Assembly (NCBI RefSeq): GCF_030144855.1
Contig: NC_082729.1
Span: 17,422,001 to 17,486,000 of the forward strand
DNA from: Hypanus sabinus
Lineage: Eukaryota
Reading direction: 5' to 3'
DNA: 64,000 bases
In this document: in pieces, positions 54,490-61,902 of the stretch
Layout of the letters: each line of letters opens with the position of its first letter
Numbering within the stretch: position 1 is the first letter of the stretch
The notes under the pieces: generated by a model
Seen by the model: the letters and a program-made list of their open reading frames with translations, nothing else
Told to the model about the DNA's origin: nothing
The model's database searches: none
Position numbers and translations under genes: made by a program

Positions 54490-54903
54490 TATTGGAGTAT
54501 AAAAGTTGCATTGTTATTTACTAACTAACAATGTAGTCAGCTTTGAACTTCCAATTTGCTATGCATGTAGCCAATTTAGTATGAGAATGAAATCTTAAGA
54601 ATGTAGAAGACAATGGTGTGTTAATGAGAGGTAGTTAAGAGATATAGATTAGAACATGATTAAGCCAATGGGTAGAAAGAATAGTGGCGGATGTACTTGT
54701 GATACGCAACTGTAGACCGATTGGATATGCTAATACAACTAAACTAGGAGATTGCTATAAAAAATGCTATGTACAAGGATCGGTGGGCAATCAGCGAACA
54801 GCTCAATGACTGTCTCAGCTTTGATTTACAAATTAAAGTTTAATACTTCTCGAAGAATCTTCTGAGTCTCCTGGTCGTTTGTGGGGAACGAAAAACCACG
54901 ACA
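54490..54903 (+). repeat. 5' LTR
   Basis: TATTGG...CGACA; TATA 54756, ATTAAA 54832; roughly 90% identical by eye to the 3' LTR. Confidence 0.93.
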
Positions 54904-54907
54904 AAAT

Positions 54908-54925
54908 TGGCGACCGCGTCAGGAC
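54908..54925 (+). other. Primer binding site, tRNA-Arg(TCG)
   Basis: TGGCGACCGCGTCAGGAC; 17/18 complementary to the vertebrate tRNA-Arg(TCG) 3' end GTCCTGCCGCGGTCGCCA (tRNA sequence from memory). Confidence 0.8.
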
Positions 54926-55276
54926 CGGAAAGAGACCCGCGGAAAGGAAACGGCAGATTGGGGACGCTTCCCAGTCCTAAAGGGACCCCCACAAGGTTAA
55001 CTGGCCAAGAGAAGAAAACGGGCAGGGAAAGGAAAATAGAGATAAATCCTCGTCGATACCGCCTTAAGAGATAAGGGTCTAAATCGACGAGGTGCAAAGA
55101 GAAAATTCTGTAGATACCGCTCTGAATAGAGGTCTGTATGGGCAGAACAGAATAGGAAACAAGGTCAGTCCAATATATAGTTTTAAAGCGCTGGACTATA
55201 GACTAGCATAGAGTAAATAATATTATCCAGTAAACGAACTGTGAATCTCTGAAATACCTTAAAAAGAGAGAACAAC

Positions 55277-57590
55277 ATGACAGGTAAAGGAACGGCAGTA
55301 GAGATTCTGAGCAAAAAAAATCCCGGTAAGTAAATATGAGATCACAAAAACTTCAGAAAAATGGGAAAAGAGAACCAAAAACCTGGTCACAAAATGGCCA
55401 AAAGAAGGAACGTTTGATGTAAGCTTGTGCGAAGAAATGGAGGCACTAATTAAAAATTACAAACCAAAAGATAAATCTAAGAGAAGAGGGCAAGAAAGAG
55501 AACGAGACATGGAAGTGCTAAAACTCTTTAGAACGGAGGGAGAAAGGCTGAGGAGGACAGGTAGAATATTGATTACAAGCGAGGAAGACACTAAGGTGCT
55601 GGAGAAACAGCCGGTTAGAGAGAGAGAGGAAGGTACAGTGAAAAGCTGGCTTCAGCTCCATACCTGGATATGAAAGAAACAAAAAAAACCCTCCCTGAAA
55701 TGAGGAAGTAACCCCTAAGCAGTGCCCCCTGCTGACAAGAACAGCAAACATGCAGGGCAAAGTACAAGTTTGGGATAATGAGGAGGAAAACAGACAATAC
55801 GAGAAGGAAAAAGCAGCGATATGGAAGGAGATACAGGCAGAAAGGATAAAGGTGGAACAGGCAAACTGAGAAATGAAAGAAGAGACTGAATGGATGAAAT
55901 ACTTGAGAGAGGAAAAGGAGTATGAGGAGTATTGGTTATACCATAGAAATAAACAGACTAGAAAGGAAAGTGGATCAGGACAGGAAGAGATGAAGCATTC
56001 AAGAGGAAGTGGAAAAAAGATAGTAGATCAGAGTCTTGGAGAAACACAAGAGAGAAGGGAAATAAGCAGAAGTAAGGATCATGAGGAGTCCCTGCCACAG
56101 GTGTACAGACACGGACAGGAAGAAAGAGAAGGTGACTCATTGGGGGAGCAAGAGTTAAGTGGAGAGAGAGAGGATGCAAAAATTTGTGGGGAAGAGGTAC
56201 GAAGCAGAAGCCTAGAAGAGCAGAAGGAGGTGGTAGGGAAGCGACTTGCGGAAGTAGAGAGAGAGCTAGATAAGTTACTGAGAGGGGATTGCCAAAGGAG
56301 ATACGAAAATACTCCAGGGGCCAACCAAGTATTGAATCAGGTCAGAAAGGAAGGACTCCACAGGGAAGAAGAGGACCCCGGAGAAATTTGTTTGGGAGGC
56401 AGTAAAGACATACCCTGACACAGATGGGGAGGCAGGCAAGGAGGAGAGCCAGGGCAGGTGGGAAGAAGGAGGAAGAATGATGCCATTGTTAGTTAAAGGA
56501 TCAGGACAAATGCAGTATATCCCTTGGGGATCCCAGGACCTAGAAGGGCTGAAAAACACTCTGCCCAATCTACATGAAGGAGCAGGGAAATGGATTAAAG
56601 CCTTTGAAGAAGGAATGGCGGGACGATTATTGGCTATGGGAGATCTGAAGGCACTATTGATATGGTTGACGGGAACCTCCAAATTTAACAAACTAATGGA
56701 AGTGGCTGGCATAGTAAACTCGAACGACCGGAGAACTGATGGAGATGGGTTTGACAGAGTGAGGCAGATGGTATGGCAGGCTCTCAGGAAGCTTTATCCA
56801 CCCAAAGTGGACCCCAAAACCTTAAAGGGGGATCCACTGGGAGACACTGAAAACCCAGCAGCCTACGTAGAAAACCAATTGAAAAGGTGGAGACTGGCAA
56901 CTGAGCAAGAGGTGGAAAATAGCTTATTTATCACCACACAGTTCCGACATAGCATTTTGGATGCAATGCCTCCGCAAGTAAATCCAAACTGGAGGAAGTG
57001 GTTGGGCTGACGTCAATAACCCCACAAGACTTTAGAGACCACGCAGTCCATGCGGTTGAGAAATACCGGAAAGACAAACGAAGGTTGGCTGAGCAGCAGG
57101 AAGAGGTGCTAAGAAAGTTAATACAAATGCAGCTTGAAGAACTCAAAAAGAAGGAAAAAGTGAAAAGCAAAAATATGCTGCCAGCAACCACCGGTCCGAG
57201 TACAGCCATCGAACTGGATGAAGCACCGCTACATGGAGGAACCGATCATACTGTAAGACAACGGCCGGAAAACCCCATGCCAATAATCAACGTCTTTGGA
57301 GGAGCAGTCCCAAAAATGCCCTTCAGGAACAGACTAAATTCAAACAGCCCAGACAGGACTGTAAGTCCCAAGGAGGGGGACAGAACTATGGGCAGAGGGG
57401 ATCAGTGAGGAAACAGGGGGAAAGAGAGGTAGAGAGAAAGTGCTGGGGATGTGATCAGCCAGGTCACATGAGAAGAGATTGTCCGTTTACACCATGGCCT
57501 GTCACACATCAGCAGGAACCGAAAAGAAGGGAACTAAAGTTTAGCCAAGGACCAGCCCCCACAGGCCCAAGCGGACCTGTGAACCCCTAA
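55277..57590 (+). pseudogene. gag: ERV gag (frameshifted)
   Basis: MA motif WPKEGTFD; CA start YIPWGSQDLEGLKNTLP; NC CWGCDQPGHMRRDC. Confidence 0.88.
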
Positions 57591-57598
57591 GCGAGGTA

Positions 57599-60500
57599 TT
57601 GGGGTACCCCAAGAACTCGAGTGGGAAGGGACATTACCCAATGATATCAAGGGAGGCAGACGAGGAACCCATTGTTCAGGTTATGTTAGAAGGGCAACTG
57701 ACACCAATGATGATAGATACTGGAGCCACGTACACTTGTGTACAGCCACAGTATGCCCTTCACCTTCCCATGTCAGGAAAGTTGATTAAGATGGTAGGTT
57801 TCTCGGGGAAAACACAGTTGACACAGTGCATGGCTCCAGTGCTGTTGAGAATCGGAAATAAAGGAATTGTTTCGTCGGTGCTAGTATTTAAAGGAACTCC
57901 GATTAATTTGTTAGGCAGAGATGCCTTATTGAAGCTGGAATTAAAATTAGAATGCACCAGAAATGGGCAGAGTGCGGAAAGAGCAGGGGCTCAATTGATA
58001 GTGCGAGAAGAAAAGAAGGCTAATATCTTTTGGATAGGAGACATCACAGATCAGATTCCGGAAACCTGGGAAAAATGGAAAAAGGGTGTGCAGGCTATAT
58101 TATCCAGGGCTGTAATGCCCAAATCTGAGCTACATTGTACAGTGATTTTTGATGAGATTCAGAACAGGGAGTTAGAGGAGAGATGGCACCTGCAGGCCTG
58201 TACACAGCACCTCCTGGAGGGGGATGCTGTGATAACTGGAAAGCAAGGGGCAGGTTTACAAGTTAAGTGGAACACCTTTTTAGAAAAATAGTACAGGATA
58301 CCAGAGGCTGCGCCCCACGTAATGTTGTTGGTAAACAAGGGATATCAGTCTAAAGACTTAGGACCCTTAGTTAAGAGTGCTGAAACCATAACAGTGTGGA
58401 GGAAAATCATGCCAGAGGTGTGGATATCAGAAGACAACAATTGCATGAAAATAATGGTAAGTGTAGATATGGTAGGGACAGTGAGAGAGGTCGAAATAAC
58501 TCCCCAACCACACATGCCATTGCTGAGAAAGGAAAGAGGCCAGCAGAAAGATAGAAGGTTAGATGAGTTGCCATCTATTCTAAGTGGAGATTGGTGCATG
58601 ATTTGCGAGTGGTAAATAATGTGGTAGAGGACTGGCCAGCGGTAGTCCCCAAACCACACACGCCTTTGACTAATGTTCCACCAGAAGCAAGTTACTTTTC
58701 AGTGATTGATTTGTGTTCCTCTAGCCGATCAGTGTCAGTATCTGTTTGCATTTCCTTACAGAGGTGCTCAGTATACCTATACCAGAATGCCGCAAGGACT
58801 TAAACATTCACCACACATTTTTAATCAGGTGTTGAAGGCAGACCTAGAGGGCATACCATTGGAAAGTACATTGTTACAGTATGTGGATGACCTGTTGATT
58901 TGCTCCCACAGTAAGGAACAGTGTGAGCAGGACACTATAACTCTGTTAAAGAAGCTGGCGCACAGAGGACATAAAGTATCCAAAATGAAACTGCAATTTT
59001 GCACGCTGCAAGTGGAATACTTAGGCAGGGTAATATCCAAGGAAGTGAAGGTGATAGCACCAGATCAGAGTGAGGCAATAACTAAGGCCCCAAAACCCCA
59101 GACTGTAGGGCAGGTGACGTTTTTGGGAATGGCAGGGTACAGCTCAGTTTGGATAGGAGAATATGCTGAGATTGTGGCACCTTTGAGAAAGATAACGAAA
59201 GAAGCAGGACATACAAATTTGAAGAACGGCTTACAGAGGAATGGAGAGGTGGAGATAGCTTTCAATGCTATTAAGCAGGAATTGCAATCAGCACCTGCAT
59301 TAGCTTTGCCTGACTACGAGAAGGTTTTTCACTTGTAGGTATCCAACTGACAGGAGGGGTATGTCACAGCGGTTCTAACACAAGAGACAGGCACAGGAAA
59401 AGCAAAGCAACCGATAGCATACTACAGTACGAGAGTAGATGAAGTGGCTCAAGGGTATCCACCCTGTTATCAGGGATTGGCGTCGCTGTACTATGCATAT
59501 GAAAAGACATCTTCTGTAACCCTGGGCTATCCTGTGACTGTACACACACCACAAAGTAGCAGAATTGCTGGAAAGAGGGAAATTTGTGCTGACACTAGCC
59601 AGAATAGCAGCGTATCAGATGCTATTGACATTTCCAGACATAACTATGCATTGATGCACTACCATTAATATAGCCAATTTTGTCCCTTTGGATGAAGGAG
59701 AACCCCATGATTGCGTAGGGATGACAGTGGCATTTGCCAAATTGAGAGCAGATTTATGGTCAGAACCACTAGAGGATGCAGATAAGAAGGTTCTGTTCGT
59801 AGATGGTTCTTGTTACATGGATTATGATGGAAATCATGCAGGGTTCTCAGTAGGGCAGCAGGATCAGTCGAACTATAAGATTATTAGGATGGAGTCCTGT
59901 CCCCAACCGTGCTCCCCCCAACTAGCAGAAATCAAAGCCCTGACAGCTGCATGTGAAATGATGGAAGGTGAGAAAGTAGACATCTATACTGCTTCAGCAT
60001 ATGCTCATGGATTATGCCATTTGTTCGGCGCAGTGTGGAAACAGAGAGGTTTTGAAAAAAGCAGTGAATATCCCATACAACATTGTCAGCAAATTCTAGA
60101 CTTAATAAAAGCCATGATGAAACCTAAAGCATTAGCTATAGTAAAATGCCAGGCACATAAAAAGGGAAATGATGCAACAACAAAGGGAAATCAAGCTGTG
60201 GACGAGGCAGCTGGAAAAGTGTCTGGATATACATCAGCTGTCATTGCCCCCCAGGTAAGCCTAGCTCTAGAACCTGTGGTAGAGTACCTAATGGAAATAC
60301 AAGGTAAGGCAACTTTGGCAGAACAAACAATGTGGAGGCAAAGGGGGGCCAAGCAGAACCCGGAAGGCTTGTGGAGCATGGAAGATGGTTTGTTGGCAGC
60401 GCCCACCCCTCTACTGACAATTTCGATTTCAGAAGCGCATGGGATTGACCATTGTGCAAGGGGAGAAGTGATAAAGAAAATAAAGGAGGATGGTTTTTGC

Positions 60501-60886
60501 TCACCTTATTTACAGGCTTCAGTGGACTTTGTCTTGTCACAGCGCGAGGTATGCACACATAATAATGTTAGGAAGGGAATTACAACCCCAGTATGTCACA
60601 TTATTGTACCTGAAGTACCATTTAAACATCTAGTGATCGATTACGTAGACATGATAAAGACAGTGAGAGGGAAAAGATACATGCTAGTAGTAATTGATCA
60701 ATTTAGCCAATGGGTGGAGGCGGTACCTTCAAGAGATCAAGGGGCAAAGACAGTGGTAACATTTCTGAAAAATTAAGTGATCCTAAGGTTTGGAATACCT
60801 ACAGAAGTTAGCTCAGACAATGGTTCAGCTTTTATCCAGAAAGTGGTCAAATTGATACTACAAGCGCTGAGGTTAAAGCAAAGATT
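57599..60886 (+). pseudogene. pol: ERV pro-(2H phosphoesterase-like)-RT-RNaseH-IN, disrupted
   Basis: IDTGAT...NLLGRD; LHCT/PHVM; KWRLVHDLR, MPQG, QYVDDLL; FVDGS, AEIKAL; HGIDH, IDYVDM, SSDNGSAF. Confidence 0.92.
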
Positions 60887-61260
60887 CCGAACAATACTAG
60901 CCCAGAGGGTCTTTCACCAGAGCAATGAATAAATTAAAGAATCTGCGGACGGAGGTCAAACAGAATGCAGGATTTGGACATCAGTTATTTGACTGGTTAG
61001 AAAGTAGACTCGGAGGATGGGGAGCATGGCTGACTAAAATGGCAATAACTGTCAGTATTGTATTGTTGAGATGTGCGCTTGTGTTGTGCTGTTTTCTTCC
61101 TTGTCTCAAGTCTCTTGTAGTGCGTGCTGCAACCAAACAATTTCCAATGCTCGTGGCAATTACTGAAGCAAGCTTAGTGGAGAAAGAAACACCGAAAATG
61201 TATTGTTACAGCCTACAACACCTTCAGGATGAACAAGAGCAAAACGCAGTGTGGGAGTAG
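60884..61260 (+). pseudogene. env: ERV env C-terminal (TM) remnant
   Basis: IPNNTSPEG-FTRAMNKLKNLRTE...FDWLESRLGGWGAW, hydrophobic TM, CCFLPCLKSL. Confidence 0.8.
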
Positions 61261-61473
61261 ATTGTAAGGGCTTCTGAGTTTTTTTCCTGTCTCAGGTACA
61301 AAGGGACAGGTTTTTGGTTCAGCGGCCCAGGGTAACGGGGAGAGAATACTTTGAGGTCTTGGCGCAGAAAATTATAGTTTAACCCGAGATTTGGGAATAA
61401 GTGCTTGAGTTTATTGGGGCTTTTGTGCGTGGACTCTTAGTCTTCTTTCTCTGTGTGAGCCCCTATGGCTCTC

Positions 61474-61483
61474 AAAGGGGGGA
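61474..61483 (+). other. Polypurine tract
   Basis: AAAGGGGGGA immediately before the 3' LTR. Confidence 0.85.
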
Positions 61484-61485
61484 TA

Positions 61486-61902
61486 TATTGGAGTATAAAA
61501 GTTGCATTGTTTGCTGTGTAACCAAAATTATGTAGTCAGCTTTGAGCTTGCTAGTTGCTATGCATGTATCCAATCTAGTAGGAGAATGAAATCTTAAGAA
61601 TATAGAAGATAATGTTGTGTTAATGAGAGGTAGCTAAGAGATGTAGATTAGAACATGATTAAGTCAATGGGTAGAAACAATAGTGGTGGATGTACTTGTG
61701 ATATGCAACTGTAGACCGATTGGATATGCTAATGCAACTAAACCAGGAGATTGCTATAAAAAATGCTATGTCCAAGGATCGGTGGGCAGTCAGTGACTAG
61801 CTCAATGACTGTCTCAGCTTTGATTTGCAAATTAAAGTTTAATACTTCTTGAAGAATCTTCTGCATCTCCTGGTCGTTTTTGGGGAACGAAAAACCACGA
61901 CA
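61486..61902 (+). repeat. 3' LTR
   Basis: Direct repeat of 54490-54903. Confidence 0.93.

What the first reader, a model, noticed from the sequence alone, without database searches (positions are those of the whole stretch)
57990..58580. ERV pol carries an inserted 2H-phosphoesterase (CNPase/2',5'-PDE-like) domain between protease and RT
Seen: about 200 extra codons lie between the protease (DTGA...LLGRD) and RT. They contain two Hx(T) motifs, LHCT (His at 58133) and PHV-ATG-L (His at 58316). The second is probably HVT mutated by CpG decay (ACG>ATG), and the single TAG at 58289 is probably a mutated TGG. Known: paired HxT/S motifs define the 2H superfamily. CNPase-like domains are reported in teleost retroviruses such as ZFERV, and viral 2H 2',5'-PDEs (coronavirus NS2, rotavirus VP3) antagonise OAS-RNase L. 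Inference: a cartilaginous-fish retrovirus lineage packaged a cyclic/oligo-nucleotide phosphodiesterase, possibly as an anti-innate-immune or RNA-end-processing enzyme. The His-His spacing (~61 aa) looks compact for the fold.
Basis: partly seen in the sequence, partly recalled or inferred. Interest (0 to 1): 0.75.

Follow-up and report, generated by a model that had tools for sequence, protein, structure and literature searches.

The report
CNPase-like enzyme domain in ray retrovirus
A dead endogenous retrovirus in a ray genome carries, between its protease and reverse transcriptase, a conserved domain predicted to fold like the host enzyme CNPase; such domains were already noted in fish retroviruses, and it likely opens cyclic-phosphate ends of RNA or nucleotides, which no test here shows.

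Summary
Observation confirmed. About 165 codons (58004-58501) lie in the pol frame between protease and RT, with HCT at 58133, HVM at 58316 and a stop at 58289. This provirus (LTRs 91% identical, tRNA-Arg primer site) is dead, but the family has at least 150 copies, and 24 of 30 copies picked by their protease match HxT/S at both motifs. Among 149 distant relatives, 81 of 90 rows covering both motifs keep both. The named ones are ray-finned fish ERVs, mostly with the same PR-domain-RT order, and domain and RT distances track each other (rho 0.75). A model of a naturally open copy (pLDDT 91) matches CNPase at Z 15-16. Viral 2-5A and cGAMP phosphodiesterases score 6-8. So it is a CNPase-like 2H domain, an old part of fish retroviral Pol and not ray-specific. 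2H/CNPase domains in fish retroviruses are already in print; I found no functional test. The 2-5A idea is weak, because ray-finned fish lost OAS-RNase L yet their retroviruses keep the domain. Likely substrate: 2',3'-cyclic phosphates (~0.5); cGAMP ~0.2. The scan noted the same domain earlier in other genomes (5 notes).

The parts
54490..54903 (+). 5' LTR (414 bp)
   Evidence: 90.9% identical to the 3' LTR; K2P 0.09 over 414 sites; 4-bp flanks ACAT/ACAG match at 3 of 4
54908..54925 (+). Primer-binding site, tRNA-Arg(UCG) type
   Evidence: Site read in 15 of 20 longer copies; complementary 3' end found in a host tRNA-Arg(tcg) gene; one mismatch in this copy
55277..57590 (+). gag, broken by stops and frameshifts (start approximate)
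   Evidence: ORF fragments; CCHC zinc knuckle PF00098, E 1.9e-4; in 25 of 30 copies an amber codon lies 14 codons before protease in the same frame, and 18 of those also show the CCHC in that frame
57659..57949 (+). Retroviral aspartyl protease
   Evidence: PF00077, E 6.7e-11
58004..58501 (+). CNPase-like 2H phosphoesterase domain (about 165 aa), broken in this copy
   Evidence: AF2 model of natural open copy L002, pLDDT 91.4; CNPase Z 15.4-16.2 over 160-164 residues; Foldseek E 2.6e-6
58133..58141 (+). First HxT motif (HCT)
   Evidence: His in 101 of 110 and Thr/Ser in 107 of 110 rows of relatives
58289..58291 (+). In-frame stop between the two motifs
58316..58324 (+). Second motif; reads HVM here and does not match HxT/S
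   Evidence: relatives have His in 132 of 138 and Thr/Ser in 126 of 136 rows
58580..58581 (+). Deletion junction: about 225 bases at the start of RT are missing in this copy
   Evidence: all 20 of 20 longer copies carry the extra bases
58582..60886 (+). RT, RNase H and 5' part of integrase, with stops and frameshifts
   Evidence: PF00078 E 1.4e-19, PF00075 E 8.2e-19, PF00665 E 6.6e-5
60901..61260 (+). Tail of env TM; about 1.9 kb of integrase end and env deleted at ~60886
   Evidence: 3 of 20 copies carry the 1.9 kb; the L044 ORF that overlaps this tail hits TLV_coat, E 4.7e-12, while the window tail alone has no Pfam hit
61474..61483 (+). Polypurine tract
   Evidence: AAAGGGGGGA directly before the 3' LTR
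61486..61902 (+). 3' LTR

Best explanation
The stretch is a two-histidine phosphoesterase domain, predicted to fold like CNPase, that sits between protease and RT in Pol of a class I (epsilon-like) fish retrovirus lineage and likely hydrolyses 2',3'-cyclic phosphates on RNA ends or nucleotides. Shown: position, motif conservation, co-divergence with RT, and breakage of this copy. Predicted: the fold. Inferred: capture from a CNPase-type host gene long ago; synthesis as part of Gag-Pol by amber readthrough; packaging into particles; and opening of 2',3'-cyclic phosphate to 2'-phosphate/3'-OH, as CNPase does, which would heal nuclease-cut RNA ends (for example primer tRNA or genome) or clear 2',3'-cNMPs during reverse transcription. 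This genomic copy makes no working enzyme.
For: Fold: VIA-align Z 15.4 (rmsd 3.5, 164 aligned) to CNPase; next family 10.0; MHV NS2 8.0, rotavirus VP3 7.9, Acb1 7.7, penguinpox cGAMP PDE 6.3. Fungal RNA kinase entry 6u05, chain range 628-832, scores Z 12.6. Motifs: both HxT/S in 81 of 90 rows; the His/Thr columns are among the most conserved of 149. CNPase ligand residues are described in PMC4643303. By spacing, an aromatic at His1+5 (Phe235 position) is present in 102 of 118 rows, Tyr/Phe/Trp on strand 1 in 47 of 48, and Gly at His2+15 in 118 of 125. A helix follows motif 2 in the model, as in CNPase's beta5-alpha7 region. The relatives' profile scores host CNPase exons above nearly all shuffles (1 and 4 of 500 reach it). 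Inheritance: 2H and RT identities correlate over 18 elements (rho 0.75, 0 of 2000 permutations), and the ray element groups with the same two relatives in both trees. CNP acts on RNA 2',3'>P ends and replaces the yeast Trl1 CPD module (PMC13247085). Gag-pol junction.
Against: No activity data. Only 10-17% identity to CNPase, and no Pfam family over its cut-off. The best Pfam hint for the open copy is Acb1 (E 0.016). CNPase Arg307 is not kept, and the Val321 position holds Lys/Arg in 104 of 126 rows (equivalence by spacing only), so the pocket differs and may take a larger substrate. 2H enzymes change substrate readily (bioRxiv 2025.08.21.671373). Retroviruses without the domain replicate (recalled). 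Within this young family purifying selection on the domain was not detected (3 syn vs 5 non-syn shared, p 0.70), although it was for RT (14 vs 9, p 0.0004). Relatives were found by similarity to the query, which inflates motif conservation somewhat.
Confidence: 0.5

Rival explanations
1. The domain is an immune antagonist that degrades cGAMP: it is packaged with RT and destroys the messenger that cGAS makes on sensing reverse-transcription DNA.
For: Viral 2H PDEs of avipoxviruses and phage degrade cGAMP (PMC11410667; PMC13577500). There is a weak Pfam Acb1 hint, E 0.016, and a conserved basic residue near motif 2. The same fold is found in walleye retrovirus Env proteins (BFVD E 2.5e-11 and 5.4e-8), so it may not need to be attached to RT. 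cGAS sensing of retroviral DNA is recalled, not from a call.
Against: The fold is far closer to CNPase (Z 15.4) than to Acb1 (7.7) or penguinpox PDE (6.3). Known cGAMP PDEs use a lid, and none is evident in the confident part of the model, though the low-confidence C-terminal tail cannot be judged.
Confidence: 0.22
2. It is a 2',5'-phosphodiesterase that degrades 2-5A and blocks OAS-RNase L, like coronavirus NS2 and rotavirus VP3.
For: Same superfamily. The ray genome has a tandem OAS cluster (25 exon-level matches, 22 of them on C31), and OAS-RNase L works in a cartilaginous fish (PMC10400998).
Against: OAS-RNase L was lost in the ancestor of ray-finned fishes, yet all 13 distant relatives with a named cluster member, of 20 looked up, are ray-finned fish, and the motifs are kept across the relatives. 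NS2 and VP3 score only Z 7.4-8.0.
Confidence: 0.08
3. It acts on another cyclic phosphate (for example ADP-ribose-1'',2''-cyclic phosphate) or mainly binds RNA or host CNP partners as a decoy, with catalysis secondary.
For: Fish ERVs also carry macro domains (PMC4977317 citing Basta 2009), and 2H domains link to ADPr>P processing (PMC9503650). The CNPase pocket fits larger ligands.
Against: Strict conservation of all four catalytic positions argues for catalysis. Appr>p CPDase 1fsi scores only Z 7.9.
Confidence: 0.17
4. It is a chance spacer or a recent, non-functional host-gene capture.
For: No Pfam or PDB sequence hit; private changes in copies look neutral (omega about 0.86).
Against: 168 relatives, a confident fold, co-divergence with RT, and only trace similarity to the host's own CNPase. 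Neutral private change is expected after insertion and is seen in RT too.
Confidence: 0.03

Closest known systems
2H/CNPase domains of fish retroviruses (Mazumder 2002 and Basta 2009, neither held; seen as cited in PMC9503650 and PMC4977317)
   Same: A 2H/CNPase-type domain in a fish class I retrovirus. BFVD top hits are an unnamed 1072-aa entry (Q2VF30) and walleye WEHV1 and WDSV proteins. Teleost ERV proteins share the PR-domain-RT order.
   Different: The host here is a ray (closest named proteins are from Hypanus sabinus, 91%). The walleye hits are in proteins named envelope polyprotein, while this family has the domain in Pol and a short Env tail. I could not read where the original papers place it.
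Vertebrate CNPase catalytic domain (PDB 2xmi, 1woj; PF05881)
   Same: Best structural match, Z 15-16 over about 160 residues; HCT-x-x-aromatic first motif; Gly at His2+15.
   Different: 10-17% identity; His spacing 61-63 vs 79; about 17 residues shorter before motif 2; no Arg307 or Val321 equivalent; no N-terminal kinase-like domain; below the Pfam cut-off.
Viral immune-evasion 2H PDEs (MHV NS2, rotavirus VP3, Acb1, avipox cGAMP PDE)
   Same: 2H fold with paired HxT/S in a viral protein.
   Different: Much lower structural scores (Z 6.3-8.0); no lid evident; embedded in Pol.

Membership tests
2H phosphoesterase superfamily | Two HxT/S motifs | tested here: met
   Met for the family: 81 of 90 rows, 24 of 30 copies. 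The window copy itself reads HVM at motif 2 and has a stop.
2H phosphoesterase superfamily | Bilobed 2H fold with each motif at the start of a strand | tested here: met
   Model pLDDT 91.4; motifs at strands 54-59 and 114-119; all 21 rows at Z 6 or more are 2H-type or uncharacterised entries, then a drop to 4.0
2H phosphoesterase superfamily | Phosphoesterase activity | not testable with these tools
   Needs an enzyme assay
CNPase family (PF05881) | Pfam curated cut-off | tested here: not met
   2 of 77 members hit, best E 0.011; the family search of the genome returned only the host gene
CNPase family (PF05881) | CNPase-type fold as nearest structure | tested here: met
   Z 15.4 vs 10.0 for the next family; Z 16.2
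CNPase family (PF05881) | Ligand residues Tyr168, Phe235, Arg307, Val321 | tested here: inconclusive
   By spacing only: two aromatics kept, Arg307 and Val321 positions differ; no residue-level superposition was available
CNPase family (PF05881) | 2',3'-cNMP 3'-phosphodiesterase activity | not testable with these tools
   Needs an assay
Viral 2',5'-PDEs (NS2/VP3) | Nearest structure is NS2/VP3/AKAP7 | tested here: not met
   Z 8.0, 7.9 and 7.7 vs 15.4 for CNPase
Viral 2',5'-PDEs (NS2/VP3) | Cleaves 2-5A | not testable with these tools
   Needs an assay
Viral cGAMP PDEs (Acb1, avipox) | Substrate-closing lid | tested here: inconclusive
   None in the confident core; residues after about 175 are low-confidence
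Class I (gamma/epsilon-like) ERV | LTR-gag-pro-pol-env with PBS and PPT, in-frame amber gag-pol junction, gamma-type TM, MLV-type integrase C-terminus | tested here: met
Class I (gamma/epsilon-like) ERV | RT tree placement with reference epsilonretroviruses | not tested
   No reference WDSV, SSSV or MLV sequences were available; the tree holds only the relatives and has no root

The most novel reading that the evidence does not exclude
Fish retroviruses package a CNPase-derived enzyme that destroys cGAMP. It would be the first retrovirus-encoded second-messenger nuclease against cGAS-STING, delivered into the particle by two routes: in Pol in this lineage and on the cytoplasmic side of Env in walleye viruses.
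Probability: 0.2. Interest if true: 0.75.

Novelty: new member of a known kind. Interest (0 to 1): 0.33.

Why it matters
An enzyme domain kept with intact catalytic motifs across ray and teleost retroviruses must have done something for the virus, and I found no test of it in the papers searched. If it heals RNA ends, it adds a step to reverse transcription in this lineage. If it cleaves cGAMP, it is a retroviral counter to cGAS-STING. The small domain is easy to assay. The locus itself is an ordinary dead provirus, and the domain's existence in fish retroviruses is in print.

Tried and rejected
Sequence searches gave nothing for the domain: Pfam on the window copy and PDB sequences. The word-index search for near-length relatives found none, and the profile search for longer forms found only 2 and no Env-borne form (weak evidence). 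The viral-contig scan could not run on the diverse alignment. Atlas hits were all below 0.9 (0.82-0.83; tRNA-ligase CPD and 2H-SAK clusters), so leads only. The first dN/dS pass used copies selected on the domain itself and is biased; the protease-selected set had too few shared changes in the domain, and its numbering copy has an 8-codon deletion, so motif 2 was recounted. Searching the genome with a distant relative returned the same family in the top 150, so no second lineage was available for between-family dN/dS. Sequencing runs: no RNA holder listed, no inference drawn. LTR dating is not informative: K2P 0.09 gives about 20 My at 2.2e-9 or about 200 My at the 2.2e-10 assumed in PMC4422223. 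Mazumder 2002, Basta 2009, Paul 2006 and Shen 2004 were not held. No complex prediction was run. Rejected: ray-specific acquisition; recent capture of the host's CNPase; an artefact of motif spotting.

Full report
Observation. The + strand pol frame reads a retroviral protease (PF00077, E 6.7e-11), then an unassigned stretch, then RT. The folded part is about 165 residues (58004-58501). The finding's end at 58580 is a deletion junction: 20 of 20 longer copies carry about 225 more bases there.

The element. It is a provirus from 54490 to 61902. The LTRs are 90.9% identical (K2P 0.09). It has a tRNA-Arg(UCG) primer site, a polypurine tract, and broken gag, pro, RT, RNase H and integrase. About 1.9 kb of integrase end and env are missing relative to 3 of the 20 longer copies, and one of these has a TLV_coat-type TM. 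In 25 of 30 copies an amber codon sits 14 codons before protease in the same frame, the readthrough layout of gamma/epsilon-like viruses (established knowledge). The genome search scored 150 of 956 candidates, all 84-100% identical over the domain. The closest named proteins are from Hypanus sabinus (91%) and Mobula hypostoma (68% over 39%).

Copies. In the 30 best domain-selected copies, motif 1 is HxT in 29 and motif 2 in 24, and 7 have a stop. In 30 copies selected on protease instead, all 30 carry the insert, 24 match both motifs and 9 are also open. Private non-CpG changes look neutral in the domain (omega about 0.86) and in RT (1.22). Shared changes show constraint in RT (14 syn vs 9 non-syn, p 0.0004) but are too few in the domain (3 vs 5, p 0.70). 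So there is no sign of host co-option, and within-family selection on the domain is undecided.

Distant relatives. phmmer with a naturally open copy found 168 proteins at E up to 0.001; 150 were listed and 149 analysed. Of 90 aligned rows covering both motifs, 81 keep both HxT/S. Thr55, His114 and His53 rank 1, 2 and 6 of 149 columns by entropy, against a median share of 0.22. His spacing is 61-63 in 72 of 85 rows, so the compact spacing is the norm. These rows were found by similarity, which favours conserved His. I scanned 39 of the relatives, mostly the longer ones, against Pfam; most show protease before and/or RT or RNase H after the domain, and a few have no such hit. Of 20 looked up, 13 clusters carry a species name and all 13 are ray-finned fish. 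Over 18 elements with both domains, 2H and RT identities correlate (Spearman 0.75, 0 of 2000 permutations), and the ray element groups with P0012 and P0064 in both unrooted trees (support 0.80 and 0.77). This fits one old cassette inherited with RT; it does not date or root the capture.

Fold. AlphaFold2 on open copy L002 with 77 sequences gave pLDDT 91.4 and pTM 0.84. Foldseek's top 50 PDB ranks shown are all CNPase/RICH (best E 2.6e-6). VIA-align over 48,161 chains gave CNPase Z 15.4 (rmsd 3.5, 164 aligned), then drCPDase 10.0, LigT 9.5, MHV NS2 8.0, VP3 7.9, Acb1 7.7, penguinpox PDE 6.3. The second look gave CNPase up to 16.2 and fungal entry 6u05 12.6. Among viral models the best hits are Q2VF30 (unnamed, E 4.1e-12), WEHV1 envelope polyprotein (2.5e-11) and WDSV envelope polyprotein (5.4e-8). 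The WDSV review describes a cytoplasmic loop at aa 874-1045 (PMC3185748, passages), which is the right size; that the match lies there is my inference. Sequence-level support is faint: Pfam hints to Acb1, LigT, CNPase and tRNA-ligase CPD, none over cut-off, and host CNPase exons scoring above all but 1 and 4 of 500 shuffles.

Mechanism. CNPase binds the base with Phe235 and Val321 and the ribose with Tyr168, and yields a 2'-phosphate (PMC4643303, passages). By spacing, the viral family keeps aromatics at the Phe235 (102 of 118) and probable Tyr168 (47 of 48) positions and Gly at His2+15 (118 of 125). It lacks Arg307 and has Lys/Arg at the Val321 position (104 of 126). CNP opens RNA 2',3'>P ends and can replace the yeast Trl1 CPD module (PMC13247085, passages). 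My best reading (0.5) is therefore a packaged 2',3'-cyclic phosphodiesterase acting on RNA ends or cNMPs, leaving a 3'-OH; expression by readthrough, packaging and substrate are all inferred. cGAMP degradation (0.22) stays open because 2H enzymes shift substrate readily (bioRxiv 2025.08.21.671373, first part and passages; PMC11410667, passages; PMC13577500, passages). 2-5A (0.08) is weak as the conserved job: the ray has OAS genes, but ray-finned fishes lost OAS and RNase L (PMC10400998, passages) while their retroviruses keep the motifs.

What is known. [quoted passage not shown] PMC4977317 states that ray-finned fish ERVs occasionally encode a CNPase, citing Basta 2009 (passages). I could not read either original, nor the SSSV or ZFERV papers, so their placement of the domain and any mention of sharks or rays are unseen. 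The part of the elephant shark ERV paper I read (part 1 of 2, PMC4422223) does not mention the domain. Eight literature searches showed no functional test of a retroviral 2H domain, and the three viral-PDE papers have no word starting 'retro' or 'retrovir' in their main text; their supplements were not read and may list retroviral entries. The scan's own notes hold five earlier reports of this domain in other genomes; they agree but are not independent evidence, and my reading was recorded before I saw them.

Verdict. This is a real, conserved CNPase-like 2H domain in the Pol of a ray ERV family: a new member of a known but apparently untested kind, here in a dead copy. Interest 0.33.

Noticed in passing
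BFVD entries Q9WHI8 and A4GTG3: The same fold matches walleye retrovirus proteins named envelope polyprotein, so the domain may sit in Env there and in Pol here; the WDSV TM has a ~170-aa cytoplasmic loop of matching size.
   Followed up: partly
L048, L051, L055 (window-equivalent 60563/60960); L038, L041, L042, L044, L046, L049, L054 (55972/56121): Several copies share identical deletion or length breakpoints in integrase-env or gag (3 and 7 of 20), suggesting defective subfamilies were amplified in trans while keeping the PR-2H-RT block.
   Followed up: partly
G000:C31:79654985-79853208 (L033-L036): Tandem array of about 8 OAS gene units, several near-identical at about 25-kb spacing: a recent OAS expansion in this ray, or an assembly duplication.
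   Followed up: no
G000:C87:40701259-40706956 (L031, L032): Host CNPase gene with both HxT motifs; only trace sequence similarity to the viral domain.
   Followed up: partly
P0005: A Hypanus sabinus protein named 'E3 ubiquitin-protein ligase Siah1 isoform X1' consists of this ERV's protease, 2H domain and RT start; likely a mis-annotated isoform or a proviral exon at the Siah1 locus.
   Followed up: no
window 2300-28600: Dense interspersed repeats in several families, probably LINE/SINE remnants; not examined.
   Followed up: no
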